Source of the DNA: Psammoneis japonica
Taxonomy: Eukaryota
Length of the DNA stretch: 56,161 nucleotides
Assembly (NCBI GenBank): GCA_008632985.1
Contig: QPGO01000127.1
Span: forward strand, 186,001-242,161
Direction of reading: 5' to 3'
Made by a program: the position numbers and the translations under genes. The notes below the pieces were generated by a model. The model saw only the letters and a program-made list of their open reading frames with translations. It was not told the origin of the DNA and did not search any database. Below are positions 9,316-44,832 of this stretch, in pieces (within the stretch, counting starts at the first letter, position 1; each line of letters opens with the position of its first letter).

Positions 9316-12300
9316 ATGGCGGCTCGTTCGGAGACCACGACACTTCTATCACCTGCGCATAACCATCAAAGTACGGCCTCCCTTGTTGCACCTCGTCCAA
9401 TGTCAACAAGAAACAATGGCAGAACCAATGGAAACACTGCTGGTGTGGCTTCAACAGCAATGATCGTCTGGGTGCGCTGCCTCCGCTGCTGTCGTCCAAC
9501 GCTGCGCTGCGCTGCTCGTTGACCAGGATGCAATCCGTGAAGGCATCTGTCAAACTGGGAGATGTTCAGATCAATTTGTAAAAGCCAGATTTGGATTGTT
9601 GGAAGGACAGTCAGTGTCTCTGGCAGACTGACGACCCGTGTCGGCACGTGTTTTTCCACAAGCGATGTGTTTTCATCCCAGGTGAGAAACTTTTGGACAC
9701 ATCACGAGGTTTTCTACGTGTTTCTACATGAGACGTACATTTAGTGCCAAAAATCTTAGTAAAAAACGAGCTCCATGACAGCAAAAATGTGTTTTTCCAT
9801 GTCTCGAACCACAAACCACAATTTGCGCAAACCGAAAATGGCACCATGCCGTCGCCATGAACTCGTCCATTCTCACACCAACGGATGTTGTGACTGAGAA
9901 GGTAAGAATGCCGAGACAGGTCAACAAGACAACGCTCAGTGCGATGATGTGGTTGAAAATTTGATCTTTGTTTTTTGTTGTGCCTTGTGGATGGCCTTTT
10001 GACTCATGACATTTTTGATGCCTCTTTCTCTCTTCCTCAGCTTGCGAAGCAGGATTCTCATCAACGCGCTGCTCCATCCACTTGACACCGGATACTGACA
10101 ACGAAGAATGTTTCTATGACACGTTGCTGTGATTCTTGCAATGTGTCGTCCGCACTTTGAGTCATCATGGACGACGCTTTTGGGTCGCGTGACAACATCA
10201 GATTTCGCCACCGACAAGAGAATCGTCATGTGTTCGGTTTTGAGGGTGTGTGAGGATAAAGAATCTCAGATGCAAGTGTGACAGTTTCATTGTTGTAAAG
10301 TGGAACAATGCCATTAGTGACGTCTTGGTGTTGCAGCCATTTTATTTTATTCTAAGATAGAACCAGTCATTTTGAGCGGTGAAATTTTGTCAACATTTCA
10401 TCTTTAACTCCACTCAGGCATGTCAAATCACACAATGACTGGACACACATTGAACTTTGACGCCACCATTTCAATCCTGTTGTTTTATTCACTCAAGCAT
10501 CCCACACAGGTCGACAGTCGATCTTTGAAGTGGCCGATCGCGCAAAAAAATCACGTGCGAAGTCAGTTCCCCCAATTTTTCTCATGCAAACAATGGAGTT
10601 AGAACGCCGTTCTTTTTTGGTGTGAGCTCTTCACACAATGAACAATGCGTGCATTCTTTCAAAGCAGTCAGATTCGGTGAAAGAAACAGTGGGACAGTCT
10701 CTCAAATGCACCAGAGTGACAACAACGAGCAGACAGCTGTCAGTTTCACTCCAAAAAATGCCGCTTTCAAGACAGCGCTTTTCTTGCACGCACCCTTCAA
10801 CCAATGAGAATGGCGGCTGGCTTTTCAAAATAAACATGTCTGTGGAAAGAAGAAACGAAAAATCGGGGGAAAGTCCAGTCAGATTTGCTCACACAAAAAG
10901 CACGGCGACGGAAAAGGGACAGATGAAACGTCTCACCTCCGCACACGCGTTTCTCACCTGGGATGAAAACACATCAAGCTGCCCAGTGTCTGGCAAGAAA
11001 GTCAACAGGAGTGTGGCACAATGGCCAAAAATGGGAGGCAGACTAAAGAGAGAAAGACTTCTGAGCCTTTTGGGTGCCACCCACAAGTTGACGATTCTGG
11101 GTCATCATGTGGCCGCAGCTGCCAAAAACAGATTCTTGGCATCAGAGCGCGATGCTGGCTGTGAGAGCAACTCACGACAGACAACAAGCCACATTTTTTG
11201 CAACATCCGTGTGTGAGGGCAAGCAGCATGCCACCTTGGCAATTGCAACCATGATTGTTGGTGGCATTGTGGAAGAGCAAAAGCTGCACAATTTGTTTGG
11301 CATCAATGATTGCATCCACGGAGCTGTGGCATTGGGTGCATCGATTCAGCAGCACAAGGACATGTCAGAAACACGTTGGCTTTTGTTCATCAGGGAGGGC
11401 CCATTGCCAACTCCCGAAGACACGGCTTGACTGGAAGTGGTCAGATGGACTCTTAATTCTGCACCAACTCTGGACATCTCACCTGAAAATGTGCCAAATT
11501 TTCCACGATGTGAGTGCCTGCACAAATCTGCAGTTGTTTGGTCATTGTGTGAACCGACATCAGCACCACTCACTCCCAATGCCATCTCCTTGTGTTGTTT
11601 CAGCTAAAACAACATGTGCCAAAATGATGGCACTTGGGCTTGCTGAGTGCAAATGTGTTGTGTTTGTGGATGCCAGCGCCCTTGCAGTGGGGCCACTGGA
11701 TGAGCTGCTGGATTGCAAAATCTTTCATGCTGAGCCTCAGTGCAAACTTGCACTGGTGTTCTAGACTGTCATCACTGTCAGTGGCAGCACTTCAACATGG
11801 GCTCCATGTTGTGGCAAACAAGTGCAAAGGAAATGATGCGAGTCCAAAAATTGATGCGTGATGCCAGCTTCATAAAGAGATTTGAGAGTGATCAGATCTT
11901 TCTCAACCATGTTCACCCAGACCAAATGAACAAGCAAGTGTGCCAAGTGGTTGTGAGTGGCGCATGAGTTGTCAAAAAAGAAGACTCCTGGGGTGCTGTC
12001 TTGGCTCTGTCATGGGACTGCAATGCACAAACACATGTCACAGTGAAGCTCAAGGATCGTTGGATGACACACCAATCCACAGTGAAGATTGCTCGCTTTT
12101 CAGAAAAGAGAGGTTGGCAATGTGAGGAACGCCATGAACCACTGCCATTGCTGCTGACTGCTGGGCACAAAACCCAAAAAAGATGCAACCGCAGTGCTCC
12201 CATGTGCTTTTGCCGTGAAGCTCACTTGTGGTGGGACACTTTGCACAGAGCAGAGCAAATCAGCAAATTGCAGTTTAGGAGCAGCAGCATTCTCATGTCA

Positions 12301-12317
12301 CAGCATGGCACAGCATG
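9316..12317 (+). pseudogene. Glycosyltransferase family 8 (glycogenin/GUX-like) pseudogene, TE-interrupted and hypermutated
   Basis: Decayed GT8 motifs across frames: 'DCIHGAVALGASI', 'TCAKMMALGLAECKCVVFVDASALAVGPLDELLDC', 'HFNMGSML', 'SDQIFLNHVHP'. Consensus Tyr positions read Cys/His. The 5' part at 9316-9663 is inferred. Confidence 0.75.
9664..10975. mobile_element. Non-autonomous TIR DNA transposon, 27-bp perfect TIRs, 4-bp TSD AAGC
   Basis: GATGTGTTTTCATCCCAGGTGAGAAAC at 9664-9690 and its reverse complement at 10949-10975. AAGC at 9660-9663 and 10976-10979. Confidence 0.88.
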
Positions 12318-14167
12318 ATTGACGAGTCTTGTCCACATGTTGTTGAGGGTGTTGATGTTTGGGTTTTTGAGTGCAAGACTTGGAAAACTGCGTTTGCCTG
12401 CCATGCAACAGTTTGGCTTGCTCAAGAGGCACATTCTGCCATTTCTTCACAGGCACGCGCATGTGGTTTCCATGCCAGTTCTGTGCAATGCAGCTCCAGA
12501 TTGGGTCTGCCATCTGTGAAGAGCAAGCAAGTCTAGATTGAGCCCGCTGGCAGCGAAGAGCAAGCAAGTCTTGTCTGAGATGTCTGCAGCAGCAACAACG
12601 ATGGAGGCAGGCCCTGTGGCAGACTGCTGTTCAAAACAGAAAGCCGCTTGGTCTTTCAATGTTTGGCTTTCCACAGAGGCACTTGCTTGGTTCGTCATCA
12701 TTGCAAATTCAGTCTTTGACCAGAGTCGCCTCTGGAGCAATTGGGGGCACCATGACCATCCAACTTGGCCTTTTGTGGCACCATCTTCAGGCAATCAGCC
12801 ACTGCAGCTGCCACCTGCCTGTTGCAGATCATCTCTCACGAGTGCCTTGTTGCTGCTGGCTTGGTGGGAGCATCCTTCAGCACCTCTCCTTCTTTCACTC
12901 AGAGCCCTTCTGGGCTTGGCAGGAGGGCCGTTGGACCTTTGCTTTGTTGGCTCCTGCAACAGCCGATCTGGACATGAAGTTCATGGTCTTTGCTCTGCTG
13001 CTGACACTTCCAGAACATTTTGGCCTGCCAAGGCTCCCACGCTCCAGCTTGTTCATCTCTGCCATGGAGCTCCTGCTGGCACACTTTCGGCGGCTCTTGG
13101 AGGTGGCTTTCACAGCCAACAACCTCTCTCCACTCTTCTCCACAGAGTGCCTCCTCTTTGCTCCTCTTCACCAGCTGCTGCTCAATCTTTTGCTGTGCAC
13201 TCACAAGGTGTGCAAACATTGGGAATTGAGCAAGGCACATCATCTCGCCCACTCGTTTCACTTCTTGTGCTGCCTCGTGGAGCTGTTGGGCTTGCTCTTT
13301 GCTTGGGACTCACAGGACAGGCTGGTCCATCTGGTGGCTGATTCCCACTGCAGCTGCTCCAAACTGCCCGTGCTGAAGCCAACTGTGCAGTGTGGCAGAG
13401 TGTGTCAAATGATCACAGCCATCCTGGCACACTGGACAGAACAAACCGTCAGCCCATTTGAGACAAATCTGCACTCTGACATGAGGTTGTGCTCTGCCCC
13501 ACCTGATGTGGTGCCAGCTCCCTTGCCAACAGCAGCATGCAAAAATGCTCTCTGGCTGCTCCCGCTGGATCTGCAGACCCACTCTCTCAAAAAGGGAAAA
13601 AGCTCAAGGAAGGGTCACCAAAGATCTGCACTGTTGCTGGCAAGTGCCTGTTCAAACAGAAATCTGAGGCTGACACCTGCAAATTTGGGGATCTTTTTGT
13701 TCTCTCCATGCGCACAGCCCACCTTCTGTCACCACCACAGGCACCAAGAAAGGAGCCAACATTTGTTTGTCCTTCACGACAGAAGGTGGACCCAACCCGG
13801 GATGCACCAACAAGCACTGCTCCATGTTGCACATTGATCTGGCAAAGAACAAATGGACCTCATGGCCGGTCGGCAACTTCGCGGACTTGTGTGATTGGAT
13901 CCATTGCCCAGCCATCACAGCGAAGCTGGCCCCTGCTAAGGCCTTTGCTGAATTGGTCATGTTTCAGCCCACAGCTTCATCTGAGGCATCCAGCTGGGAT
14001 GCATGCCACCCAGCATCGCTGTCGCCTCTCTCGCCCATGAGCCCAAAGAGCCATCTGACAGCGGTGATGGCTGGGGTGTCCCCCTTTCTGGGCTCCTTTG
14101 TCAAGCTGAGAAAAAGAAAGTGAAACTTGGCACTCACACACATCCCGCCCTCACATTCAAAGCTGGA

Positions 14168-14258
14168 ATCATTTTGGAATGAGATCCCATGGGACACAGT
14201 CCGGTCAAAGGATCATGTTGTCTTTGACATTCGTTGGTCTCAATTTAAGCATCCCCAA
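14168..14258 (+). repeat. ~90-bp dispersed repeat, second copy at ~24831-24920
   Basis: Both copies contain CGGTCAAAGGATCATGTTG and end in CAATTTAA(G)CATCCCCAAG; probably a decayed TE terminus. Confidence 0.75.
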
Positions 14259-15139
14259 GTGAGAGGGTGGGCCGACAATCTTGCTGGGGCCAAAAGAGTT
14301 TCCAAGGCCGTCATCAACATGCAGAAGAAAGTTTTCAAAGTGAGGAAGGGACAAAGGAACATGGAAGACAACAGGGAGGGGACGTTCACCATCGGCCGCA
14401 AGTGCCAGGAAAAAGAAAATGACAGATTGGAAGTGATGCTAAGTTGGTGGAGGAATTGGAGGACTCAAGGAGGACAGTGACAGGGTGGAAGCTTGAGGGA
14501 AAAGCAAGGAGGAGCTGAAGGATCAAAGAGAAAATGGGCAAAATGGGGTGGCAGTGGAAGGACTGCAAATGGAGGAAAATGGGACGCAGATGAAGTGCTC
14601 GCGCAGAAGGTGATCAGAGGAAGAGTGATGTCATGGCAAGTGAAGCCTGGCAAGTCTGCATTGGAGCAATGTTGATGCAGCAGATGAAGAGGGATGAGAT
14701 TTGGAGAGTCTTGGTGACACCAAGTTTTGGAGTCAAAGGTTGGGGAATCAGAGCATGCGGTTGTGTTGCCAGCAGCAGGATGAAGTGAAAAGAGAAGGAA
14801 AAGAAGGAGACCATCATGTTGGTGGTGCAGCTGTGCTTGATGGAGCGTGGATTGTTGTCAGAGGAGGATGAAGCATGAAAGACATCAGAAGGATGGCAAA
14901 GGTCACCAGAAGGATCATCAAATGGATCTGGGTCAAAGAAATGCTGGCACATGTCAAAGTGACAATCAGCAAAAAAAGGCTGGCAAGTGCCTGGTCAAAG
15001 ATTCTTGTGTGTCATGGGAAAACTGCTGGCTTTTAATCCAGCAGAGTGACACAGCAGTTGGCAACCAGCACAATTGCCGAAGGTGTTGGCATGGTCATGT
15101 TGAAGGAAGGAAAAAGCAAAAGTGTTGAAACATCATTGT

Positions 15140-15570
15140 TGCAGTGTGCCTCGCTGCTGGACAACACGGCGAGACCGTGCATGAGCCTCTTGTGTGTGGC
15201 AACGTAGTGTTGTTAACACGCACCTGGGAAGCACGACCACAGGAGGGCGTGGCTCCAGGTCTCAGGCAATTCCAGATGGATGCTGAGAGAGCATCCGTGT
15301 GAAGCACACTAGCCCGTCGTCTGGCCCACGATGGCAGCGTGATTCCACACGATGACATCACTCGTGCATGGCGCGTGATGGCTTCATTCACACGATCCAC
15401 AATGCGAGTGCACGATCGATTCAATGCGATCCAAATGCGAACGAACAGGGATTTGGCAAGATTCCCCATTCGCACGATCCCATTTTCTCTGCTCTGAACT
15501 GGCCCACAATTTTCACAATGACAAAGTCGTAACACATCTTCTTTTCAGCGCCCAGTGCATGCACAGGGCA
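15140..15570 (+). repeat. 5' LTR of Gypsy-1
   Basis: Direct repeat of 22437-22867. Confidence 0.95.
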
Positions 15571-15664
15571 CAGCAATGTTGCTCCCGCACATTGTGCGAG
15601 GTGACGAAATCTGCAGAAACGAAACTGCGAAATGTTGGCAGGACCGACAAATCTTAAAACGACC

Positions 15665-18600
15665 ATGAAGAAGCGGATTGAGCCACCGACTCCATTTGCA
15701 CGGCCAGAGAAGAAAGAGCTGCAGCAAGGCGAGTGCCAGACGTTCAAGCTGCGTAACAACCCCACTGATCCGGACAGTCCAATGCACAAGATGGGCATTC
15801 CGCACCTTTCTGCGGCTGCATGCAAGACACTCCTGATCTTTCTGTGCAACGTGGATCGCGTGCACGAAGGACAAAACATCACGACCGGGCCAGCGAAATT
15901 TGCCCTTGTGCGTGACCTGCTGCAGGGCGATGCTCTGACGTCATTTGACAATGCCGCTGACAAGCAGGCATCCCAAACCAATGCTGCATGCGCAGCATGC
16001 GTCGCAAAGCTAAAGGAAAGTGTCTTCCCACATGGGGCGGCACCATTGCAGAAGCGTTGTCTGAGGCGCTTCATGTGCAAGCCCGCAGAGGTTTCTGCTC
16101 GTGACTGCGTCGCGAGGGCTGTTGAAATTAACGGCCACATCTCTCAGTTTCCACCCGTGACGGAGGATGGAGAAGCACCGGCACCATCACCTGATGACGA
16201 ACCATGCAACATGTTCAAGTGCGGTGTGCCGAACGCATGGCAGAAGTTCATGACGCTGCAGAATTTTGACCTGTTGGTGCGTGCTGTCGCCGAATTCATG
16301 CAGTTCTGTGAGCGCATCGAGCAGGTCGAGCTTGCCGAAGGTAACCAGGACCAACATGCTAAGGTTCCACACAAGCGGGGACGTAGAACGGACAATCCTG
16401 AGTCATTGATCACGACCCAACGGAACACCCAGAAGTCGTGCACGCTGCACGGGACTAACTGTGGACATCATGCGGAGGATTGCCGTCAGCTCAAGCACCA
16501 CACGGTGCCAATCTCAGTGACATGGCATCGCAGAAACATGTTCTTTGTGCCAGAGACACACATTTATGAACAATGTGTTTCGCTGGCAGCACTGCCGACA
16601 GATTTCTCTTTTTTCCACACTTCACCGTGACGAAAAAAATGGTGAGTCGCCGTTGCTTTCGACGATGTCGTTCGCCAGAAGTGATGAGTGCGAGTGTGAT
16701 GTTTCAACAAATTGTTGCCAATCAATGTCAGCACTGACGACATCACCAAAAACATCACACTCACACTCATCAGGAGACCGTTTTTGGACGATGCCACTGT
16801 TGGCACCGCTGCAAAGCAAAATGGCATGTGCAGCTGCTTTCGACGATGTCGTTTGCCAGAAGTGATGAGTGCGAGTGTGATGTTTTGACAAATTGTTGCC
16901 AATCAACGTCAATGCCAATGACATTGATAAAAACATCACACTCATGTTCATCAGGAGACCGTTTTGTGACGACCCTGCTGTTGGCACCGCTGCAAAGCAA
17001 AATGGCACGTGCAGCTGCGCTGTTGATGACACAGTTTGCCGAAAACAACACGTGTGAGGACCATGTTTTGATGCAACATTGGTGTTCAATGTCAATGCCA
17101 ACCACACATGCAAAAACATTGCTCTTGCACTCATCAGGAGACCGTTTTGTGACGACCCTGCTGTCTGCTGTTGTCGCCGTGACAAATGTTTCAGCATGTT
17201 CCCTCGGCGAGTCAAAAGTTGGGAATGCTCGTTGCTTGTTCACTTTGGCTCTTGTGGTCAGCTCTCATGCTGTCTTGTGGACACATGGGAATGGAAAAAT
17301 GGTGCTCACGAAGCGCACTGCCATTTGGTGGTGGCTTTGATGCGCCCAGACCAGTCCATCTCGTCGTTTTTCAGCATGTTCCCTCCACCGAGTCAACAGG
17401 CAAGAACACTCATTGCGCTTTCACTTTGGCCCTTCTAGTCATCTCTCATGTTGTCTTACAGACACATGTGAGTGCAAAAACAGTGTTCAGGGAATGCATT
17501 TGGAGGCCCTCTGATGGCTTGTCCCGTCTCTTCCGTTCGCCGTCGGCAGTTTTCGGAAGGTTCGCACTTCAGTGCGTCATTCCAGTTCCTCTCTTTGCAC
17601 CTGATTGGCTTGATGTTTGCCACAATGACATGCAAACAATCCACAAAAAACAACTGTGTTGCACTGGGTTTAGAAGTTCTTCAGACAGCAGGAGCGACTA
17701 GCCACCCCCTGACCTTGACGACCAAATGCGCCCAAAAATGCCAAGTTCCGGCCTCTCCTTGTGCCACCAAGGTCGCAAATTGCAATGAGTCAAACATGCA
17801 TCTCGTCATGACAACCCAAAACAATGTTGGATGCACTGTTGCAATGCGGCACTCTGCACCGTTCCCAGCCCCACAAGCGACCGGCAACTGCAGACCGAGG
17901 ACCAAAGCTCGAAACAAAAATGTTGTGTTCCAGCCTCTCATTGCACCACCAAGACCGCATGCTGCAATGACTCAAGCACACATCTCGTCATGACGACCCA
18001 AAGCAACACTGGATGCCCTGATGCAGTTTTCTGCATCATTTCCAGCCCCACAAACAACCGGCAACCAACAACCAGAGAAAACAAAAAACCTCCATGTCCA
18101 TCTAAATGCCAAAGAAACATGAAACCTTTGGAAGATTCCAACAAAACAACTGCACCACCAAACTCAGCGTGTTCGAATCACCTTGCACCAATGTCATTGA
18201 CGCCAAAATGTCGTCCCACTGATGGCCGATTTGTGAACAGAGACAAGTTGCGGAGAAAACAAAAAACTACCCTGTCCATCCAAATGCCAAAGAAACACAA
18301 AACCTTTGGAAGACACCAAAAAAAAACCAGCACAATCGTGCTCATTACACTCGAATTGCCTTGAATCAATGCTCTTGACCCTGTGACATTTTCCCAGTGA
18401 CGGTGCATTCATGAACGCCGTGCCGCCATGGTTGTTTTGTTCTCGCCTTTTTCACGAGTCCAGACAGTTTTTGAGGTTGTGGGCCCAAACCACACTGTGT
18501 CGCTCCGCGCGCAGAAAAAAAGCACCGTGACCACGTGAAACGTGTCAAGACTGGACGCTCCAGTGACGGAGGCAGCAAGCCCAATGCAAAACCTCGGAAT

Positions 18601-18741
18601 GAGGAAGATGTCAATGCTCTCATCGGATCGAAGGTCGAGGAGTTCTTTGCCAACGCTCAGAAAAAGCGCAAGGCACGCGAGGAGGAGCTCAATCACTTCC
18701 GCGACCTCAACTTGAGTGATTCCGAAGATTCGGGCGCCTGA
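15665..18741 (+). pseudogene. Gypsy-1 gag, split by the 16501-18529 insertion
   Basis: Gag-like ORF ending in a CxxHxxxxxHxxxxC knuckle. Removing the insert plus one TSD restores the frame (..CRQLKHHVKRVK..). Confidence 0.8.
16501..18529. mobile_element. Non-autonomous DNA transposon with CAC...GTG termini and 4-bp TSD ACCA (Chapaev/CMC-like), filled with ~180-bp internal repeats
   Basis: Starts CACGGTGC, ends GCACCGTG. ACCA at 16497-16500 and 18530-18533. Superfamily assignment is inferred from termini and TSD length only. Confidence 0.8.
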
Positions 18742-21700
18742 GAAGGGGGCCGACACGATGCAGGCAGTTTTGGCACATTGGATGAATGTGTGAATGAACA
18801 ACTGAATTACCATCGTACACGTGTTGCAGGCCAATCCCGCAAACGAGTTAAAAAGACTCATCTTGCTCCAATCTTGTTTACAGCTGTGAACACTAAACAT
18901 GGCAAGGGCAAGACTCAAACCATTAAGGCACTACTAGATAGTGGCGCCAGCAGTGCTCTACTCGACAGTCGACACTGTAAACGTCTGCGAAGCCATTCAA
19001 CGGCTGAGACAAACTGGACTACGGTAGCAGGCTCGTTCAGTACGTCTAACGACTGTACCGTTAAATTTTGGTTACCAGAATTATCCGAAACTGCAGAACT
19101 TAAATATACCGTCCACGTACACAACGGAAAGTTGGGCAAGTACGATATGATTATTGGACGTGACATTCTGGAGACATAAGGCATTGATATTGTCTTCTCT
19201 AAACAGATGATAGAGTGGCCATTAGTCAATGGAGAAGTACCAATGAGGCACGTAGATGCTACGGTGGAAACCTCCTTCTATCTTCAAGATCCAGAAGGCT
19301 TATCTTCGGAAACCGACCGGATTTCGCGTATTTTAGACGCTAAGTACGCGCCGGCCTGCCTCGAGGACATAACGCGAGGGACAATAGGACATTCTATAGT
19401 TCAACAAAACGACCTTTTGGCACTATTGAAACGCCATGAGTCCTTATTTGATGGGACATTAGGAGAATGGAAGGGAGAACCCTACCATATCCAACTCAAG
19501 GAGGGTGTAGAACCACACCACGCTCGTCCGTATAAAGTACCTCGTGCGTACGAAGCTACGCTACGCAAAGAAGTAGAACGCCCAGTGCGTGTCGGTGTTC
19601 TCAAACGCGTTAACCGATCCCAATGGGCAGCTCCATCATTTATCATGCCGAAGAAAGATTTAACGGCACGCTTTATTAATGATTTGAGAGAGCTGAATAA
19701 ACGGATCAAGCGATTGCCTCATCCGATTCCTCACATCCAAGATGTGCCACTTGAGCTCGAAGGCTTTGTGTGGGCTGCATCGCTGCATTTAAACATGGGC
19801 CATTGTCACACCCGATTGGATGCTGATGGCAAGAAGCTCTGCACGCTCATCTTCCCGTGGGGCAAGCATGAGATGCAGGCATTGCCCATGGGATTGTGCA
19901 ACTCGCCAGACATTTTCCAAGAACGCATGTCAGGCTCATTTGAGGATCTGTCGTTCGTTCGAACGCACTTGGATGACCTTCTCGTCGTGACGAAAGGCAC
20001 CTGTGAAGATCACCTCAACAAACTTGAAGAAGTTTTGTTGAGGGTCCAGAAAGCAGGACCAAAAGTCAACGCAACTAAATCTCACTTCTGTCAAACCCAG
20101 TTGGAGTGCTTGGGTTGTCTGGTCAACAGAGACGGAATGCGACCAACACCTGACAAAGTCGACGCCATTGAACGAATCGCGACCCCAACCAACAAACGCG
20201 GCCTGCGCTCATTTGTTGGCATGGTGAGCTGCTGCCGCGACACATGGATTAGACGTTCTGAAGTCTTGGCTCTGCCCAACACGACTCGCAAGCGAGACTG
20301 TCAAGTGGGAGTGGACGTCCGTTGAAGATGAGGCATTCGAAACCGTCAAACGGGTGATGTCGGATGATGTTTCATTGTCACATCCCAATTTTAACAAACC
20401 CTTTGAGATGCATGCCGATGCCTCTAAATGTCAATTGGGAGCAGTCACATCCCAAAATGACAAACCTGTCGCCTTTTACAGCAGAAAGCTCAACAGTGCG
20501 CAGTTAAATTGTGCAACAACGGAGAGAGAATCACTCGCCATTGTGGAGACGTTGAAAGAATTTCGAACGATTCTCCTTGGTCATCGTGTGATTGTGTGTG
20601 CTGATCATAAAAAATCTTGCGCACAAAGCACTCAACACCGAGCGCGTCATGCGCTGGCGGCTGACATGCGAAAAATGCGGCCCCGAATTACGTTGTGTTG
20701 AGGGCACCCACAACCCAGTCGCTGACGCTCTTGGTCGCCTTCGACCAGCACCCAGCTTGCCTTCCGAGGCCAATCCGGATGTAAAAGACACTCCATCGAG
20801 TCGTCCTTTGCATGAAGCTTTTAATGCAGACGCACAAGAGGAGATGTCTCTGCCCGTTGGCTTCAAGCGCATTCAAAAAGCACAACAAAAGGACAAGCGC
20901 CTGCTCTCACGAGCCAAGGACTCGTCCGACTGCTCCATTCGCGCATGTCGTGGGGGGAGGGTCATCACGACAGTTAATCTGTCATGAGGACAAAATCGCA
21001 GTGCCACAGTCATTGCAGGTTCCGCCCAACTGAATGGTGCCACGAGACACTGTGTCATCCAGGTGAGACACGTGCGGAAACATCTGTTGCCCAGCACTTC
21101 TGTTGGCCTGGTGTGAGGTCTACGGTGCATTCTACGTGCGTTAAGTGCGATCGATGCCAGAAGACAAAACGCCGAACGCAGCGTTGTGGGAAGCCACCAG
21201 AAAAGGTCGCAGAGACAATTCCATGGGAGACTCCATGCACAGACATGACAGGGCCACATGAAATTCAAAGACGCGGAAAGGACACTTTGCAATTGTGGTC
21301 AGTCACAATGATTGACCCAGCAACCGGGTGGTTCGAGATTAAAGAAGTGTCTGCGAAACGCGCAGACGTCGCAGCAAACGTCGTGGAACAAACGTGGCCA
21401 CGCAGATGTCCGTGGCCAACCCAGGTGGTTTGTGACCGTGGGACAGAATTTATGGCAGAATTTAGCCAGATGATTAAAAATGACTGTGGGATTTTGAAGA
21501 AACCCACAAGCAAACGGAATCCACAGGCGAATGCCATGGTGGAACGTGTGCACCAGACACTTGGTGACATGGTGCGTTCCTTTTCAGTGCAGGACATGGA
21601 GCTGGACGAAGATGACCCATGGAGTGGCATCCTCTCCGCAGCAGCCTTCGCTGTCAGAGCTGCGGCACATGCGACCACGCGTGCAAGTCCCATGCAATTG

Positions 21701-22397
21701 GTCTTCGGACGCAATGCGGTTTTGTCTGTTGCCCATCGTGCCAAGTGGAAGCACACAGAAACTAGAAAGCAGAAGCTCATCCACTTGAACAACAAGCGTG
21801 AAAATCAGAAACGCAAGGAGCATCAATGTGCCGCAGGGCAATTGGCACTTGTCAAACAGGAACAATCCTCTAAGTGCGGTTCTGACAGCTGTGCAGGACC
21901 CGCCAGAGTTGTCCGTGCACATGACAACGGCACGTTGCGTGTCCAGAACGGAGCGCTGACAGACGGGTTCCAGTCCTAGGTGGGACTCCGTGTGACATTG
22001 GGCCCGTAGAATTCTACGTGCGAGCTCTGTAGTACGAGAATTTAATTAATGGATGTGTTTATCTTCACTGTCAAATAAACGGCCAAGTTTGTGGTACAAA
22101 TATGCCTCTTGCCACTCGACGTTTTTGCAAATGCGCCTGCCCTACGCGATTCTTAAGACATTGTAGAATCGCGCTGTAACAAAAAATGTCAAAAGTTGTT
22201 GGACGGATCGCTCAATAAGTGTACCGTAAAATGACACAAAATATCGAAAAAATCACGTAGAAATCTACGTGCGCGACATACAACGTGATTCAAAAAACTA
22301 TCGATGTCACAGTTCAGTAGTACGAGGTCCCACCTAGACCTGGAACGCGTCGACAGACACGTGCAATCTACGGCAGATTGCACCCTGTCGCCAGTGA
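18742..22397 (+). pseudogene. Gypsy-1 pol (protease, RT, RNase H, integrase) with stop, frameshifts and Tyr->Cys/His substitutions
   Basis: LLDSGA; LPMGLCNSPDIFQ; THLDD (from YLDD); DASKCQLGAV; HETLCHPG..C..C; DRGTEF; PQANAMVERVH. Confidence 0.92.
21962..22351. mobile_element. MITE (390 bp) inserted in Gypsy-1 integrase, TSD GACA
   Basis: TIR GACGGGTTCCAGTCCTAGGTGGGAC versus the reverse complement of GTCCCACCTAGACCTGGAACGCGTC. GACA at 21958-21961 and 22352-22355. Removal restores GALTDTCNLRQIAP. Confidence 0.9.
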
Positions 22398-22436
22398 GAC
22401 ATCCTGTCACTTAACGGCCCTGATCATGGGGGAGTG

Positions 22437-22867
22437 TGCAGCATGCCTCGCCACTGGACAACACGGCGAGACCGTGCACAAGCCTCTTGTGCGTGGCAAC
22501 GCAGTGTTGTTAACACGCACCTGGGAAGCACGACCACAGGAGGGCGTGGCTCTGGGTCTCAGGCAATTCCAGAAGGATGCCAAGAGAGCATCCGTGTGAA
22601 GCACACTGGCCCATCGTCTGGCCCACGATGGCAGCGTGATTCCACACGATGACATCACTCGTGCATGGCGCGTGATGGCTTCATTCGCACGATCCACAAT
22701 GCGAACGCACGATCGATTTAATGCGATCCAAATGCAAACGAATAGGGATTTGGCAAGATTCCCCATTCACACGATCCCATTTTCTCTACTCTAAACTAGC
22801 TCACAATTTTCACAACGACAAAGTCGCAACACATCTTCTTTTCAGCGCCTGGCACATGCATGGGGCA
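22437..22867 (+). repeat. 3' LTR of Gypsy-1
   Basis: Direct repeat of 15140-15570, followed by TSD TTGT. Confidence 0.95.
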
Positions 22868-24029
22868 TTGTGTGACACCCAGATGTCAGTTTGAAGCAAC
22901 CCAGAAACATTGAAAGGAGAGATGCTTTTGACTTCTGACATGCAGTTCTTGACAAAATGGGACATTCTTTGAAGAGATCAGAGCTGCCGTTGACATCCTG
23001 TCATGTGTGTTTTGTTCTTGCACTTTGGAAAAAATCATTTGGTTCACATGATGATTGTTGTTTGGCATCAAGAGGTGCCTGTTGTCACACCAGTCATGCA
23101 GTGATGCCAAGGCAACCCACAGCCACCATTGCACTGCCAAGGCAAGTGTGCTGAGCAGCACAGAAGACCCCACAGGACTCCTTTTTAGAAACATTGACTT
23201 GCTGGCTCAGCACTCACTCTGCAGAGTCATTGACACTGTGCTCAGTGCTCACAAATTTCAGATCACTGCCTGCACCAAGCCAACTCAATGCTGGCACTGT
23301 GAGTGGCAGAGGAGGTGGCAGAAGTGGCTGACATGGTCATGGCAGAGGCAACAAGAGTCCCAGGTCCTCTGACAAGAACAAGGAGACCAATGACAAGACA
23401 TGCTTTTAGCTTGAGATGAAGTTTCTCACATTTCATCACTGAGCAGCAACACCTGCAATGCAACATGCAACAAAGATGTCAAGGAAAAGGTCATCCAACA
23501 CATGCAGAAAGAATGCATTCAAGGTGTGCATTTGACAAAGTCTCTGCAAGATGTGAAATGCAAGGATTTTAAGAGGCCAAGATGCCAGCCTTGTGAGCAT
23601 CTGCAGCAACTGCATGAAAAGAAGACAGTGTGGAGTGCCAGAACAAGCTGCAACAGAAAGAATGCAAGAGGGGACAAGGAGCTGAAGCAAGCAAATGCTG
23701 TGAGGAGAAGATTGAGAAGTTGAAAGAGAACAAGACAATCATGCTTGCCAAGATTTTGGATGACTGTGCTGCACCAAACAATTCAAACAAAGGGTGCCAG
23801 CAAGCAGACCCCAGTTTCCTTGCTGTTGGATTCTGCCAATGAAACTTGTCCAACTCCTGACATTTGACTCAATGGGTTGACATCCATTCCACCTGCACAC
23901 TTGCCAAGGCCCTTTGATGCGAGGCAACAAGACAACAAATTGCTGCATGATTGCATCTCAAGATTCAAGAATCAGCAAGATGCCACCAAACAATGACTGG
24001 GAGACAAGATGCTGGGTCTTCCATTGTGC

Positions 24030-26265
24030 AAAAGTGCAGTGCAAAGCCCTGCTGGTGTGTGGTCAATGCTCGCAGGCATGGAGCAGACCGCTCATGTCAC
24101 TTTGGCTTGAAGGTTCCCTGCTGCTGCAGGGCAAAGCACTTGGCTCTTGGTTGTGCCCCTGCAACATGTGAGACAGTGGGTGAAATTGAACAGACCAAAT
24201 GACCCACAAAGCACTTGCCCTCACATCTTTGTCTTTTGCCAAAGACAGAAAGAAGGCTTTGCCATCTCCTGATCATGAATTTGTGCCATCGCTTAGCTGC
24301 AGCCAATTTGTGAGATGGCAACAAAAGCAAGCTGGCAAGAGATTTGACAGCTGTTTTTTTTTTGGCAAGAAAAGTGTGGCAGCTGAACTCTGGTTGATTT
24401 CTGTTCTTTGGTTGTTCCAACAATGGAGACAAAGTTGGAGTCAAGCCAATCCAAGCTCTTGTTGTTCCACAGAGGTTGACCAAGCTGCTCAGTGGCAGGC
24501 TCAGTTGGGCTGGCTTGCCAGAAAAGATGAGGAGGGGCAAAAAGAACACAGGCTTGGCAATTCTCAATTTCTGGCTCAGCTGGATGGTCACTCATTCAGC
24601 TGGAACAAGCGAGTCTTTCTCTGGGATGGAATCTGCAACTGATTTCTGGACCTTGGCTCCAGTGCAACAAACTCCATTGCTCCCCTTTTGTTGCTCTGGG
24701 CAGACAAATTCATTTGTTCTTGTTGCCTGCCAGTTGCCACTGACTGAGAGAGTTGACAGGCAGTGGAATTTGCATTCTTGGAGCCTCTCTAATGCTCTGG
24801 AGCAGGGACAGAGCAGGATGTCCAGCACAATCATTTTTGAACAAAACCCCATGGAACATGGTTCGGTCAAAGGATCATGTTGACTTTGATGTTTGTTGGT
24901 CACAATTTAACATCCCCAAGTTTTTTGTGTCACATTGCCACCAATTGCTGCATGCATGCATTCACTCATTTGCAGCTCAGTTTCACCAGTCACATCATTT
25001 CATCCCCCACACCTGCCTGCTTTGAACAACATGACAAAACAAATGGCATTGCCTTCTTCATGGAAAACATCAACTTGTCGAGGTTGTGCTTTGCACCTTT
25101 AAAATCTTCACATTGAAGGAAAACCAACCAACCTTTCACTGTTCCCACACCTTGAAAAGTTCCTTGTTGTCCTTCAAATGAATCCATGCTGCCCTTGATG
25201 TGAAGCAGTTGGCAGGGCAAGTGACCACATCACACACAGCTGGAGCCAACAAATCATGCATTGAGCATTGTGCCCTCAAAAATGCCGTGATCATCAATGA
25301 AAGATGTGGCAAGAAATGCACACTGTTTTGCTCTGGTCATGGCTTCCAAACACATGCACTGTGGAGGTGCTGGGCACCAAGTTTTTGGCACCATCATTCC
25401 TCCAAAGGATGCTCCAGCAGTCTTGCTCTGTCTTGCAAGCACTGTTTCCTGTTGCACTCTTTCACACAGCTGTCAAAAGCCCCTCTTTTAATTCTTGCTG
25501 TTTAGTGATGCCCAAGTTTTCTTGCTTGGAGCAGGCCGGCTCTAACTCTCACCTCACAACATTGTGCACAAAAAAACATGCAATTGGCCTGTCATTTGTT
25601 TGGGTGGTGGTTGCCATCTGTGATGGATGATGGTGGCCACAAAGAGATGACAATTGGTGGCTTCCATGTGGAAAAGTGCAGCAAAGCATCACTGTGTGAT
25701 CAATGCTCACAGGCGTGAAGCAGACCATCTGCGGCACTTTGGCTTGTCAGCTCCCTGCTGCTGCAGGAGCAAAGTGCACCAGGCTGGTTGTGCACCCAGC
25801 ATGACATTTGAAGATGGCAAGTGAAAGCAAATGCAGGCCAAAGAACTCACAAAGTGCTCACACTTGCATTTCATGTTTCAGCTGCAACCAATTTGTGAGA
25901 TGGCAAACAAAAGCCAGCTGGCAAGAGATTTGACGGCTGGCTTTCCTTGTTTGGCAAAAGTGGCAGCTGGCCGAACTGGTTGGTTTCTCTTCTTTGGTTG
26001 CTTTGTCCAACAATTTAGCCAAAGTTAGAGTCAACAAGCCAAGCTGTTGTTGTTTCTGACAGAGGCCATCCAAGCTGCTTGGTGGCTCAGCTGGGCTGGC
26101 AGCACAGAAGAAGGGGAGCAAACACAACACAGGCTTGCATTTTCTCAATCTCTCCTTGGCCCCAGTGCATCAAACTCCCATTGCTCTCCTTTTGTTGCTC
26201 TGGGTGAACAAATTCATTTGTTCTTGCTGACTGTCAATTGCCGCTGAGAGAGTTGACAGGCAGCA
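24030..26265 (+). repeat. Diverged direct duplication (~24030-24770 versus ~25670-26265) of decayed sequence
   Basis: Collinear shared blocks, e.g. CCAATTTGTGAGATGGCAA..GCTGGCAAGAGATTTGAC and CTGAGAGAGTTGACAGGCAG. Confidence 0.8.
25021..25085 (-). pseudogene. Short decayed fragment of the 3' end of an M8 protease gene
   Basis: Aligns to ~32676-32735: VFYKEGDAIYFV becomes VFHEEGNAICFV. Confidence 0.7.
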
Positions 26266-27919
26266 GGTTTTTGCCAGCACACAATCTGCACAGTCTGTGT
26301 GGAGCACAAATTTGTAAATTTTTCTGATGCTTTCACATGTCATCAAATTTTCTCTGCAGAGTGGTTCGCCAGCTGTGTGTTGCTTTGCTTGCGAGTCTCT
26401 AAGAAAGCAGCATTGCAAGTGTGTGCACAAGGTTTTGTGCTGAGACTGGGTTTGCAGCAAGCACAAGGACACTGAGCAGAAGGAGGAGCCACAGCTCCAC
26501 ATCATCATTTGTTGATTGTCTCACTGACCAGAAATCTGACAATGACAAGACAGCCGCAACAGTTGCTTGAGAATGACTGAACAAATGAATGTGAGATTGA
26601 CTTTTCCAATCTGAGTTTTTGAACAACAATGAGACAATTTTAACAGCTGTGCTCATGTTCACACCCATCTCTCACTGCTGCCTTGTTGAGTTGTTGGCTG
26701 CCCTCAAGAACACAGACAATGGGGGGGGCATGTGCACTGCCAACTTGCAGCAGCTTTCATGGTGGGAAATGTTCTGCAGAAAGAAGTTGACACCTGTCAT
26801 TTTCCCAAACAAGTGCGAGTCTCACAACTTGGCTTGGCCCTGGCTTGGGTGCTGATTGCTTTTTTGCATGCCACAGCAGACATGGCCACAGCACCAGCTC
26901 AAGCTTTGGTGGTGTCAGCAGCACCAGCAGTGGATGTTCTTGACAATGCACCACTGCACATTTGTGGCATTGCTGATGTTGGCACAAGGGCTTCTTTGGC
27001 ATTTCACAATGAACATGTTGTCTTGGGAAACATTGCAGGTCATGGAGAGAAACTCAGACATCCAGGAAATGGTGAACAGAGTGGGGCAGTGGGGCTTCAT
27101 GAAGCATCTGCATTTTTTGTTGGATGCAATGCATGTTGGTCTTGAGACAGGAAATGTTCCTTCATTTGTTGTGGCCTGGAATGTGTGAGCATGGAAAAAA
27201 GAGCAGCCTGTTCAGCAGCTCTGTCATGTCATGCAGCATGTTGTGGTGAGATTGTGCACACACTGCAGAACAGCTGCAGCTGCAGCAGGCAGTGCTCTTG
27301 GCATGTTGTGCAGTGCTGCTGGCAAGCACTCTCACTCTTGACCCAACATGTCTTGTGTGCCAACATTGTTTGCCATGGAGGTGGTTGGGTCTGATTCAGC
27401 CTTGACTTTGAGGACAGAAGAAGTGCAATCCTTGGCAAGGTGAGATGCGCGACATTCATGTTTTGCTTGCAATGCTTGTGTGTGTGATGCACCAGGCTTG
27501 TTTGCCACAGAGCAGAGCTGGCACTTCAGGCATCTGATGGATGGGATCTTGAACATTGAGCCCTTTTTCTTTGGCTTTGTTGCCCCTGGCAGAGGAGTTC
27601 TGAGTGCTCACAGTGCTGCCACTGAGGGAGCATGGTGCATGGTGAGCTTTATTCTCATGGAGAGTCTTTGCTTCTTTGGGTGGAGCCATGATGGTTTGCT
27701 GCTCTTTTGCAGGAGAAATCCACTTTTTTCAGATTCCATGAGGATCCTGTGCCATGGTTCTCAGCTTTGAACATGTGTTTGCAGATGCCAACATCTGACC
27801 CATCTTTTCACAGTGAATCTTGCACTTGTTCTTGATGTCTGTGATGAAATCTGAACTGGCAAACATGAGGTGAGCCTCTTGAACACAGTGAGGATTCTTC
27901 AGCAGTGAGATGGAATTTT

Positions 27920-44806: not shown

Positions 44807-44832
44807 GGTTGTGTGGATATGGAATAGAAGTG

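What the first reader, a model, noticed from the sequence alone, without database searches (positions are those of the whole stretch)
15140..22867. The two LTRs of Gypsy-1 show TpA changes arose independently after insertion
LTRs are identical at integration. By manual alignment, 8 sites keep TA in one LTR and have CA or TG in the other (e.g. CTCTGCTCTGAACTGG vs CTCTACTCTAAACTAG; AACGTAGT vs AACGCAGT). Another 8 sites have TG in one and CA in the other (e.g. CGCTGCTGG vs CGCCACTGG; GCTCCAGGT vs GCTCTGGGT), as expected from a shared TA (or CG) ancestor hit on opposite strands. This places the process on chromosomal DNA rather than on RNA or cDNA during retrotransposition.
Basis: seen in the sequence. 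Interest (0 to 1): 0.85.

Follow-up and report, generated by a model that had tools for sequence, protein, structure and literature searches.

The report
TpA-eroding hypermutation dated by retrotransposon LTRs
The two end repeats of a dead Gypsy retrotransposon, identical when it inserted, have since each lost about 80% of their TA dinucleotides to CA or TG, which shows that a TA-specific mutation process acts on chromosomal repeat DNA in what is probably a diatom.

Summary
The LTRs 15140-15570 and 22437-22867 align without gaps: 431 bp, 34 differences, 33 of them transitions. Termini are TG..CA and the target-site duplication is TTGT.

The direction is TA loss. I could not see family states at the LTR sites themselves. 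Four other lines agree:
- A likelihood fit of the LTR pair.
- Conserved Tyr codons of pol now read His/Cys at 10 of 15 columns, with none reversed.
- Other family copies read TA where this copy reads CA/TG in 19 rows, against 1 reversed.
- A host-gene fragment and a MITE copy lying in TA-free blocks lost 17 of 17 and 14 of 15 TAs.

Each LTR lost about 80% of its TAs, on both strands. That is about 12 times the CpG decay rate and about 200 times the rate at other sites.

The window is a mosaic of genic DNA and blocks almost free of TA and CG. The same signature has so far been reported only in a 2026 preprint on Bigelowiella natans. This host looks like a diatom, so I file it as a new member of a very recently described kind. 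The enzyme is unknown; adenine deamination at TpA is an inference.

The parts
15136..15139 (.). Left copy of the target-site duplication, TTGT
   Evidence: Same four bases at 22868-22871.
15140..15570 (+). 5' LTR of Gypsy-1: 431 bp, TG..CA termini, 4 TA left, TA observed/expected 0.18, CG observed/expected 0.89
15571..22436 (+). Internal region of Gypsy-1 with broken frames. Protease at 18742-19179, reverse transcriptase at 19180-20325, RNase H at about 20279-20701, integrase at 20978-21979.
   Evidence: Pfam hits RVP, RVT_1, RT_RNaseH_2, Integrase_H2C2 and rve. Frames from tblastn. The in-frame TAA at 19177 is private to this copy.
16636..18416 (+). Internal array of roughly 181-bp tandem units. 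Most family copies lack it.
   Evidence: read laying joint 16496->18530 and low depth there.
18750..19750 (+). Sharply bounded patch with normal TA content (63 TA in 1001 bp). Its conserved residues are intact: 1 of 38 strongly conserved columns differs.
   Evidence: Unexplained. A gene-conversion tract from a young copy, local protection and an assembly or polishing mosaic were not told apart.
21960..22356 (.). Nested, younger MITE-like insertion of about 390 bp with 30-nt terminal inverted repeats. It has 26 TA and is not hypermutated.
   Evidence: Inverted repeat 21962-21991 / 22322-22351. X1 contigs join 21959->22356, and depth there is about ten times the rest of the element. TA counts.
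22437..22867 (+). 3' LTR of Gypsy-1: 431 bp, 6 TA left, TA observed/expected 0.26, CG observed/expected 0.95
22868..22871 (.). Right copy of the target-site duplication, TTGT
11001..15135 (.). Older saturated block to the left of Gypsy-1: TA observed/expected 0.02-0.08, CG 0.24-0.30, CA+TG 1.6-1.9
   Evidence: No Pfam hit in its ORFs.
22872..29000 (.). Older saturated block to the right of Gypsy-1: TA observed/expected 0.02-0.07, CG 0.02-0.25
   Evidence: No Pfam hit in its ORFs.
27919..28390 (+). Copy of a host-gene fragment (original at 6396-6875) lying in the saturated block. All 17 TA became TG (11) or CA (6), and 17 of 19 CG became TG or CA. No change runs the other way.
40092..40451 (+). 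Old copy of the MITE family in another saturated block. 14 of 15 TA became TG/CA, and 16 of 16 CG became TG/CA.

Best explanation
Gypsy-1 is a dead Ty3/Gypsy LTR retrotransposon that inserted once, flanked by the duplication TTGT, into a repeat block that was already degraded.

After integration its DNA was hit by two context-specific transition processes, each acting independently at each site and in each LTR.

(i) The dominant process converts TpA to TpG or CpA, which is an A-to-G change on one strand or the other.
- It removed about 80% of the TAs in each LTR (95% CI 65-90%), or about 1.6 events per TA per lineage.
- That is about 12 times the CpG rate and about 200 times the rate at other positions.
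- TAA is refractory and TAT/TAC are preferred.
- TG and CA products are equally frequent and show no strand-coordinated runs.

(ii) Ordinary CpG-to-TpG/CpA decay removed about 12% of CpGs per LTR.

The 8 reciprocal TG/CA sites are ancestral TAs that were hit on opposite strands in the two LTRs.

The TpA process is regional. It spares neighbouring genes and young insertions, and with time it drives repeat blocks to TA observed/expected 0.02-0.08.

Shown: the direction, the dinucleotide specificity, action on both strands, timing after integration, and confinement to regions.

Inferred (my probability about 0.45): the agent is an enzyme that deaminates adenine in DNA at 5'-TA, giving inosine that is read as G, and it is directed at silenced repeat or foreign DNA. 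This is what the preprint proposes for the same signature in Bigelowiella natans.
For: LTR anatomy and difference classes.

Likelihood fit: TA-gain and CG-gain rates are estimated at 0, and the loss model beats the RIP-like model by 10.7 log-likelihood units. q = 0.80 with CI 0.65-0.90, CpG p = 0.123, ratios 12x and 205x. The implied ancestral LTR had about 25 TA, 5.8% of its dinucleotides. That matches the unmutated patch (63 TA per 1001 bp) and the young MITE (26 TA per 382 bp).

Protein polarisation. Outside the patch, majority-Tyr columns are His/Cys in 10 of 15, Tyr in 1 and other residues in 4. This includes the Tyr at 19966 that is Tyr in 83% of 140 homologues. Inside the patch, 3 of 4 are still Tyr (Fisher p = 0.016). 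None of 13 majority-His/Cys columns is Tyr. Twelve of 17 departures at conserved columns are single TA>TG or TA>CA steps.

Family copies: 9244 X1 contigs were laid. 782 of 891 variant places are transitions, balanced in all four directions. In 19 of the 40 rows shown, other copies read TA where this copy reads CA/TG, and in 17 of those TA holds more than half the depth. One row is reversed.

Regional natural experiments. The host-gene fragment kept 17 TA in the gene and none in the block copy. Hits on A within TpA were 17 of 34, which is saturation, because a single hit destroys the dinucleotide. Hits on A in other contexts were 6-10%. The young and old MITE copies show the same.

Mosaic of TA-free and CG-free blocks.

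Both strands in both LTRs, with run counts as expected by chance. Preference at the 3' neighbour, chi-square p = 8e-5.

Precedent. In B. natans mutation-accumulation lines, 230 of 231 hypermutations are A>G or T>C, all on TpA, at about 6e-7 per site per generation, in integrated viral DNA (preprint 10.64898/2026.01.13.699255; I read the Results and Discussion sections).
Against: - Family states at the 16 LTR sites themselves were never seen, because the read-laying output was truncated.
- The 8 single TA sites are no more than random transitions would give. The direction therefore rests on the reciprocal sites and on evidence from outside the LTRs.
- The likelihood argument assumes equal rates among CpGs. 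A hidden class of hypermutable CpGs could mimic the reciprocal sites.
- Many of the read-polarised rows lie in the internal tandem array. There the laid contigs are few (3-13) and may be paralogous units.
- At several rows 100% of X1 depth differs from the window. This copy's private bases are therefore not independently confirmed by that run.
- One clear reverse change exists: 19177 is CA in the other copies and TA here.
- The TA-normal patch at 18750-19750 is unexplained.
- No deaminase gene, DNA-modification data or mutation-accumulation data are available for this organism, and no genome is held. The enzymatic step is pure inference.
Confidence: 0.85

Rival explanations
1. The direction is reversed, as in fungal RIP. 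C-to-T changes at CpA/TpG create the TAs, and the reciprocal TG/CA sites come from methylated CpGs deaminated on opposite strands.
For: Both routes need two hits per reciprocal site. The 8 single TA sites are compatible with either direction on their own. CpG decay does occur in the same LTRs, at 7 sites. One CA-to-TA change is seen at 19177.
Against: - lnL is -228.67, against -217.98 for the loss model.
- The expected number of reciprocal sites from CpG is 0.25, so P(>=8) = 2.6e-10.
- TA is depleted to 0.02-0.08 in the old blocks, not enriched.
- None of 13 His/Cys columns became Tyr, while 10 of 15 Tyr columns became His/Cys.
- The host-gene fragment and MITE pairs show 17:0 and 14:0 in the loss direction.
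Confidence: 0.03
2. The changes were made on RNA (ADAR-like editing) or on cDNA during retrotransposition, not on the chromosome.
For: By my recall, ADAR-type enzymes prefer a 5' U. The whole family shows transition-rich divergence. Some of that could predate each insertion.
Against: - LTRs are copied from one template, so differences between the LTRs arise after integration.
- Each LTR carries both TG and CA products, and each keeps TAs that the other has lost.
- A fragment of a host gene and the flanking non-element DNA are hit in the same way.
- The loss fraction in the LTRs, which can only be post-insertion (0.8), matches that in the internal region, where about 1 of 11 Tyr columns is kept.
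Confidence: 0.03
3. The pattern is a sequencing, base-calling or polishing artefact of the assembly.
For: This copy's private bases are not represented in X1 contigs at several places. The sharply bounded TA-normal patch could be a polishing mosaic.
Against: - Identical local contexts read differently in the two LTRs.
- The changes are coherent at codon level.
- Contigs of an independent run show the same transition spectrum across thousands of family fragments.
- Five of 220 homologous proteins from other public data contain no Tyr at all.
- A family of metagenome contigs shows the same asymmetry in 2 of 13 copies.
Confidence: 0.03
4. The direction and the chromosomal location are the same, but no dedicated editing enzyme is involved. 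A chemically or replicatively mutable modified base at TpA in silenced chromatin raises T:A-to-C:G errors. A thymine or adenine modification would be a candidate.
For: - The hits are independent from site to site and show no strand-coordinated clusters, unlike processive deaminase tracts.
- The process co-occurs with CpG decay in the same blocks, which suggests a link to modified or silenced DNA.
- By my recall, dinoflagellates carry hydroxymethyluracil preferentially at TpA. No call tested this.
Against: The B. natans lines show on/off behaviour between lines (preprint Results), which fits a regulated activity better. No modification data exist for this organism. The young MITE inside the mutated element is untouched, though that may only reflect its age.
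Confidence: 0.2
5. Part of the LTR divergence was imported by gene conversion from other, independently mutated copies, rather than arising base by base in place.
For: The family has thousands of fragments in run X1. The 1-kb TA-normal patch looks like a conversion tract.
Against: The differences are spread along the whole LTR, not in tracts. The counts fit independent per-site loss exactly: 1, 8 and 8 observed against 1, 8 and 8 expected. Even if this were true, the mutations would still have arisen on chromosomal copies.
Confidence: 0.1

Closest known systems
TpA-specific hypermutation of integrated viral DNA in Bigelowiella natans (bioRxiv 10.64898/2026.01.13.699255, 2026; I read the abstract, Results and Discussion)
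   Same: Changes are almost exclusively TpA to TpG or CpA, on both strands. The process is confined to particular regions, runs orders of magnitude above background, and leaves TpA-poor, CpA+TpG-rich clusters. Reverse-transcriptase and transposase domains are enriched among TpA-poor coding sequences.
   Different: - The host here is not B. natans. The best database identity of a conserved carrier is 54%, and the best named relatives of a host gene are diatoms.
- The targets here are an LTR retrotransposon, a MITE, unannotatable repeat blocks and a copy of a host-gene fragment, not giant-virus or virophage inserts.
- Depletion goes much further: TA observed/expected is 0.02-0.08, against 0.45 for their viral region.
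- It is accompanied by CpG erosion. The preprint text holds no occurrence of CpG, LTR, retrotransposon or diatom.
- The evidence here is historical (LTR dating), not de novo mutations.
Repeat-induced point mutation (RIP) of ascomycete fungi
   Same: A dinucleotide-specific transition process degrades repeated or mobile DNA in the chromosome and inactivates its genes.
   Different: RIP runs the opposite way: C-to-T at CpA creates TpA and makes DNA AT-rich. Here TpA is destroyed and GC rises. RIP mutates both copies of a duplication, whereas here the genic copy of the duplicated fragment is untouched.
CpG decay by deamination of 5-methylcytosine in silenced transposons
   Same: It is present here as the second, slower component: 7 LTR sites, and CG observed/expected 0.02-0.3 in the old blocks.
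   Different: It cannot explain the TA sites. At the measured CpG rate it cannot explain the reciprocal sites either.
ADAR or APOBEC hyper-editing of retroelement RNA or cDNA
   Same: A deaminase-type transition signature on retroelements. By my recall, ADAR prefers a 5' U.
   Different: Those act before integration, on one strand, and give both LTRs the same changes. Here the LTRs differ, on both strands.
tRNA adenosine deaminases TadA/ADAT2 and the DNA base editors derived from them (recalled, apart from the preprint's Results section read)
   Same: By my recall, their natural substrate is A34 preceded by the invariant U33, a 5'-UA context. The preprint cites DNA editing by ADAT2 in amphioxus and trypanosomes, and a B. 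natans ADAT2 homologue.
   Different: No such gene could be looked for here because no genome is held. TAA is the refractory context and TAY the preferred one. No known enzyme preference was tested against this.

Membership tests
Ty3/Gypsy LTR retrotransposon | Two direct long terminal repeats with TG..CA termini | tested here: met
   431-bp LTRs, 92.1% identical, beginning TGCAG and ending GGGCA.
Ty3/Gypsy LTR retrotransposon | Short target-site duplication flanking the element | tested here: met
   TTGT on both sides. A 4-bp match has a chance probability of about 1 in 256.
Ty3/Gypsy LTR retrotransposon | Pol domain order protease, reverse transcriptase, RNase H, integrase | tested here: met
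   RVP at 18742-19179, RVT_1 at 19180-20325, RT_RNaseH_2 at 20228-20701, Integrase_H2C2 and rve at 20978-21979.
Ty3/Gypsy LTR retrotransposon | Primer-binding site and polypurine tract next to the LTRs | not tested
   A purine run, GGGGGAG, ends 2 bp before the 3' LTR. No tRNA match for a primer-binding site was sought.
TpA-specific hypermutation of foreign DNA (B. natans type) | Mutations almost exclusively A:T to G:C and restricted to TpA | tested here: met
   The likelihood fit gives TA loss only. Twelve of 17 conserved-codon departures are TA>TG or TA>CA. A within TpA is hit 17 of 34 times (saturation), against 6-10% in other contexts.
TpA-specific hypermutation of foreign DNA (B. natans type) | Both products, TpG and CpA, meaning either strand is hit | tested here: met
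   LTR1 has 8 TG and 5 CA; LTR2 has 4 TG and 7 CA. The gene-fragment copy has 11 TG and 6 CA.
TpA-specific hypermutation of foreign DNA (B. natans type) | Confined to particular regions, at rates orders of magnitude above the rest of the genome | tested here: met
   Blocks with TA observed/expected 0.02-0.08 lie next to genic DNA at 0.5-0.7. The rate is about 205 times the rate at other LTR positions. The genic copy of the duplicated fragment is untouched.
TpA-specific hypermutation of foreign DNA (B. natans type) | Targets are integrated foreign (viral) sequences | tested here: inconclusive
   The targets here are a retrotransposon, a MITE and blocks with no recognisable coding content (0 of 95 ORFs hit Pfam). 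A copy of a host-gene fragment is hit as well. Position or silencing state may matter more than origin.
TpA-specific hypermutation of foreign DNA (B. natans type) | De novo events seen in real time, switched on in some lines only | not testable with these tools
   Needs mutation-accumulation lines or population data for this organism.
Fungal RIP | C:G to T:A transitions, mostly at CpA, which create TpA and AT-rich DNA | tested here: not met
   The TA-gain rate is estimated at 0. TA is depleted and GC is not lowered in the blocks. No His/Cys column became Tyr.
Fungal RIP | Both copies of a duplicated sequence are mutated | tested here: not met
   Only the block copy of the 6396-6875 / 27919-28390 pair is mutated, with 17:0 and 17:0 asymmetry.
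CpG decay through cytosine methylation | CG to TG or CA transitions with CpG depletion in silenced repeats | tested here: met
   Seven LTR sites. CG observed/expected is 0.02-0.3 in the blocks. In the paired copies 17 of 19 and 16 of 16 CG are lost.
CpG decay through cytosine methylation | 5-methylcytosine present on the affected DNA | not testable with these tools
   No methylome is available.
Pre-integration editing of retroelement RNA or cDNA (ADAR/APOBEC type) | One-strand bias, with changes shared by both LTRs | tested here: not met
   The LTRs differ at 16 TA-derived sites, with both strands hit in each LTR.

The most novel reading that the evidence does not exclude
A TpA-directed DNA adenine-editing defence is not peculiar to one chlorarachniophyte. 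It is an old system shared across distant SAR lineages, diatoms included. It is aimed at silenced DNA by position or chromatin state rather than by sequence origin, prefers TAY over TAA, and works alongside cytosine methylation. Over time it converts mobile elements into stretches free of TA and CG, and therefore free of TAA and TAG stop codons. If so, LTR pairs could serve as a genome-wide clock of its activity in any assembled genome.
Probability: 0.4. Interest if true: 0.85.

Novelty: new member of a known kind. Interest (0 to 1): 0.7.

Why it matters
Until the 2026 B. natans preprint, I knew of no eukaryotic genome-defence-like process that destroys TpA by A-to-G change. Six full-text searches found no other report, and none for diatoms.

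This window shows the same signature in what is probably a diatom, a group of major ecological weight. It adds four things the preprint does not have:
- A clean dating argument: LTRs are identical at integration, so the process acts on chromosomal DNA. This also gives relative rates of about 12 times CpG decay and about 200 times background.
- New target classes: a retrotransposon, a MITE, and a copy of a host-gene fragment.
- Coupling with CpG erosion.
- A preference at the 3' neighbour.

There are practical consequences. Such blocks carry no TAA or TAG stop codons and so throw up long false ORFs. Their elements escape homology-based repeat annotation. LTR-divergence dating will overestimate ages several-fold unless TA and CG sites are masked.

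Tried and rejected
- Whole-genome search for other LTR copies: no genome is held for this window.
- Read laying on 15000-23000 with runs X1-X3. It printed only 40 of about 900 variant rows, none at a polymorphic LTR site, and its cap is one call. Runs X2 and X3 hold next to none of the words and are not used as evidence.
- An exact 24-base stretch of the LTR found nothing in the metagenome contigs.
- No other copy of the LTR lies in the window (blastn).
- The protein-atlas search gave no usable lineage.
- Rfam and tRNA scans of the window found nothing.
- The search of earlier findings by place, words and sequence returned nothing.
- Gypsy-2 is too distant from Gypsy-1 to polarise codons: 32-45% identity in pol.
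- Columns 1-17 of the RNase H alignment were dropped. That stretch is out of frame, because the frameshift lies near 20271-20279.
- Strand-coordinated clustering of the hits was tested and not found.
- TG-versus-CA imbalance in the blocks was tested and not found: 453/440, 723/702, 211/213, 236/233, 233/229.

Full report
**What is there.** The window is eukaryotic and no prokaryote-type genome is held for it.
- Compact genes without visible introns lie at 1-9 kb and elsewhere: a TPR protein, a protein kinase, an EF-hand mitochondrial carrier, a sulfotransferase and a Fam20C-like kinase.
- The conserved carrier finds nothing closer than 54% identity in the protein collection. The organism is therefore not Bigelowiella natans, whose transcriptomes should be in that collection.
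- The best named relatives of the sulfotransferase are diatoms: Thalassiosira exigua at 62% and Seminavis robusta at 49%.
- The named relatives of the element's RNase H are from the diatom Cylindrotheca fusiformis, at 63-65%.
- I infer a diatom host. This is an inference from best hits, not a proof.

**The element.**
- The LTRs begin with TG and end with CA, and TTGT flanks both ends.
- Between them lie protease, reverse transcriptase, RNase H and integrase, in that order and in broken frames.
- This is a single, dead Ty3/Gypsy insertion on the + strand.

**The observation.** There are 34 differences, of which 33 are transitions. Sorted by pyrimidine-purine dinucleotide column (120 columns):

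| Class | Columns |
|---|---|
| TA/TA | 1 |
| TA versus CA or TG | 8 (LTR1 keeps TA at 3, LTR2 at 5) |
| Reciprocal TG/CA | 8 |
| CG/CG | 25 |
| CG versus TG or CA | 7 |
| TG/TG | 27 |
| CA/CA | 44 |

- Only 3 differences fall in the 191 positions outside such dinucleotides (binomial p = 7.7e-6).
The 7 CpG sites were not mentioned.
- Random placement of 33 transitions gives 0.51 reciprocal sites on average and never more than 5 in 20,000 trials.
- The same simulation gives 6.9 single TA sites, so the 8 observed are not remarkable on their own and do not show a direction.

**Direction, from the LTRs alone.** I fitted a four-state model (CG, TG, CA, TA) with separate rates for CG loss, TA loss, TA gain and CG gain, and with free ancestral frequencies.
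- The full model sets both gain rates to zero.
- Loss only has lnL -217.98. CpG decay plus RIP-like TA gain has -228.67, with the same number of parameters.
- In plain counts, 25 shared and 7 single CpG sites give a per-LTR loss of 0.123 and predict 0.25 reciprocal sites, so P(>=8) = 2.6e-10.
- One shared and 8 single TA sites give a loss of 0.80 and predict 8 reciprocal sites. Eight are observed.
- The implied ancestral LTR had about 25 TAs, 5.8% of its dinucleotides. That is the density still seen in the unmutated parts of the element: 63 per 1001 bp and 26 per 382 bp.
- The weak point is the assumption that all CpGs mutate at one rate.

**Direction, from outside the LTRs.**
1. *Proteins.* I laid 220 homologous pol proteins on the internal region by tblastn.
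   - Outside one patch, the 15 columns where most homologues have Tyr (TAY) read His (CAY) or Cys (TGY) in 10, Tyr in 1 and something else in 4.
   - The column at 19966 is Tyr in 83% of 140 homologues and is His here.
   - None of the 13 columns where most homologues have His or Cys reads Tyr.
   - At columns with at least 70% agreement, 17 of 136 differ outside the patch. Twelve of the 17 are a single TA>TG (9) or TA>CA (3) step. None is a CA/TG>TA step and none is a CpG step.
2. *Other copies.* Run X1 gave 9244 contigs of the family at 80% likeness or more.
   - 782 of 891 variant places are transitions, balanced among the four directions.
   - Of the 40 rows printed, other copies read TA where this copy reads CA/TG in 19, and in 17 of those TA holds more than half the depth. 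One row is the reverse (19177).
   - Four rows are CG in the others against CA/TG here, and 1 is the reverse. Six rows are transversions and 9 are other transitions.
   - Many of these rows lie in the internal tandem array, where the contigs are few and may be paralogous units. I give this line less weight.
3. *Natural experiments in the window*.
   - A fragment of a host gene (6396-6875) has a copy inside a TA-free block (27919-28390). All 17 TAs of the genic copy are TG (11) or CA (6) in the block copy, 17 of 19 CGs are TG or CA, and nothing runs the other way.
   - Per adenine, hits are 17 of 34 within TpA. That is saturation, since one hit destroys the dinucleotide. Hits are 6-10% in other contexts.
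   - The young MITE nested in Gypsy-1 and its old relative at 40092-40451 show 14 of 15 TAs and 16 of 16 CGs lost in the old copy.

**Timing and place.** LTRs are copied from one template, so the 16 TA-derived differences arose after integration.
- Each LTR keeps TAs that the other has lost, and each carries both products: 8 TG and 5 CA in LTR1, 4 TG and 7 CA in LTR2, with run counts as expected by chance. Editing of one strand of RNA or cDNA cannot produce this.
- The loss fraction measured in the LTRs (0.8, CI 0.65-0.90) matches the internal region, where 1 of 11 informative Tyr columns is kept. Most of the element's TA loss therefore came after insertion.
- Relative rates per lineage are 1.61 per TA, 0.131 per CG and 0.0079 per other position, the last resting on only 3 events.
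- As a rough guide only, take the Phaeodactylum base-substitution rate of 4.77e-10 (PMC6604790, abstract). The element would then be on the order of 1e7 generations old, and the long-term rate about 1e-7 per TA per generation.

**Surroundings.** The window is a mosaic.
- Blocks at 11001-15139, 22868-29000, 35001-37000, 39001-41000 and 52001-54000 have TA observed/expected 0.02-0.08, CG 0.02-0.4 and CA+TG 1.6-1.9.
- Genic stretches have TA 0.4-0.8 and CG about 1.
- Gypsy-1 landed inside an already saturated block. Its own CG is still about 0.9 while its TA is about 0.1, so TA goes first.
- None of the 95 ORFs of 90 residues or more in the blocks hits Pfam.
- Gypsy-2 (44832-49739) is young. It has a 1195-residue ORF, LTRs with 3 differences in 296 bp, TA 0.57 and CG 1.39.

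**Context preference.** For 42 polarised events, the base 3' of the edited A is C in 14, G in 12, T in 9 and A in 7. Among the 100 strand contexts of TAs that survive outside the patches it is A in 51, G in 29, C in 15 and T in 5 (chi-square p = 8e-5). TAA resists, and TAT and TAC go first. The only TA kept by both LTRs sits in TTAA.

**Unexplained.** Two stretches of Gypsy-1 have normal TA content and sharp edges.
- Stretch 21960-22356 is a nested MITE-like insertion with 30-nt inverted ends. Other copies lack it, as shown by the joint 21959->22356. Its youth explains its TA content.
- Stretch 18750-19750 belongs to the element itself (protease and the first half of reverse transcriptase). 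It keeps 3 of 4 conserved Tyr and differs at only 1 of 38 strongly conserved columns.
- For the second stretch I could not tell apart a conversion tract from a young copy, local protection and an assembly mosaic.

**Comparison with what is known.**
- The only report of this signature that six full-text searches found is a 2026 preprint on B. natans. I read its abstract, Results and Discussion.
- In its mutation-accumulation lines, 230 of 231 hypermutations in two integrated viral regions are A>G or T>C, all on TpA, at about 6e-7 per site per generation and in some lines only. It also reports TpA-poor clusters and an enrichment of reverse-transcriptase and transposase domains among TpA-poor genes. 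It proposes an ADAT2-like adenine deaminase acting on DNA.
- Its text does not contain the words CpG, LTR, retrotransposon or diatom.
- The case here shares the signature, the two-strand symmetry and the regional confinement. It differs in host, target classes, depth of depletion and the accompanying CpG loss, and it rests on historical rather than de novo evidence.
- It is the reverse of fungal RIP in direction. It also differs from RIP in sparing one copy of a duplication.

**Leads on generality (partly followed).**
- Five of the 220 homologous pol proteins from public data contain no Tyr at all, with His+Cys at 7-10% against a median of 4.1%. One of them is 699 residues long.
- A family of 13 metagenome contigs related to one of these was fetched. 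Two copies (L001, L012) have CA/TG at 24 of 42 and 19 of 32 sites where most copies have TA. The other 11 copies have 0-3 such sites.
- L001 and L012 may share ancestry, so these are not two independent cases, and their organism is unknown.

**Verdict.** The mechanism behind it, whether a deaminase or a mutable modified base, is open. I rate it a new member of a kind described only months ago, with interest 0.7.

Noticed in passing
window 18750-19750: A 1-kb stretch of Gypsy-1 (protease and the first half of reverse transcriptase) has normal TA content (63 TA) and intact conserved residues. It has sharp edges and lies inside an element that is otherwise about 90% TA-depleted.
   Followed up: partly
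window 21960-22356: A nested MITE-like element of about 390 bp with 30-nt inverted ends. It is absent from other Gypsy-1 copies, has about ten times the element's depth in run X1, and is rich in TA and CG (unmutated). An old, TA-free relative lies at 40092-40451.
   Followed up: partly
window 6396-6875 and 27919-28390: A fragment of a host gene (the ORF with a PMSR hit, and beyond it) is duplicated into a TA-free block. The block copy lost 17 of 17 TA and 17 of 19 CG, and the genic copy lost none.
   Followed up: yes
window 11001-15139, 22868-29000, 35001-37000, 39001-41000, 52001-54000: Blocks almost free of TA and CG have no TAA or TAG stop codons and so give long ORFs (for example 12542-13837, 431 residues). 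None of these matches Pfam (0 of 95), so they are likely false genes in any annotation.
   Followed up: partly
window 44832-49739: A second, young Gypsy element has a 1195-residue open gag-pol frame and LTRs differing at 3 of 296 positions. Its TA observed/expected is 0.57 and its CG is 1.39. It is not hypermutated and may be active.
   Followed up: partly
window 52070-54700: A tandem duplication with a period of about 1370 bp lies inside a depleted block. Its 25 differences in 1256 columns are mostly at CpG: 7 CG/TG, 4 CA/CG, 2 reciprocal sites and only 2 TA sites. TA was already exhausted when it duplicated.
   Followed up: partly
window 16636-18416: An array of roughly 181-bp tandem units lies inside Gypsy-1. 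Most family copies skip it (joint 16496->18530 in run X1).
   Followed up: no
window 19177-19179: An in-frame TAA between protease and reverse transcriptase is private to this copy; all 17 other contigs read CAA. It is the one clear CA-to-TA change, an ordinary C-to-T nonsense mutation.
   Followed up: partly
window 17305, 17318, 17815, 17962: At these four rows the other copies read T and this copy reads C, with T or C as the next base. These are T-to-C changes outside TpA. They may be a weak secondary context or noise from paralogous units.
   Followed up: no
proteins P0154, P0192, P0265, P0273, P0329; loci L001 and L012: Five of 220 homologous Gypsy pol proteins in public data contain no tyrosine. 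In a metagenome family related to one of them, 2 of 13 copies show the same TA-to-CA/TG asymmetry. L001 and L012 also have CG at 10 and 8 sites where most copies have CA or TG.
   Followed up: partly
window 20271-20279: A frameshift lies between reverse transcriptase and RNase H in this copy. Other copies lack one base at 20275-20278 (read-laying table 4).
   Followed up: no
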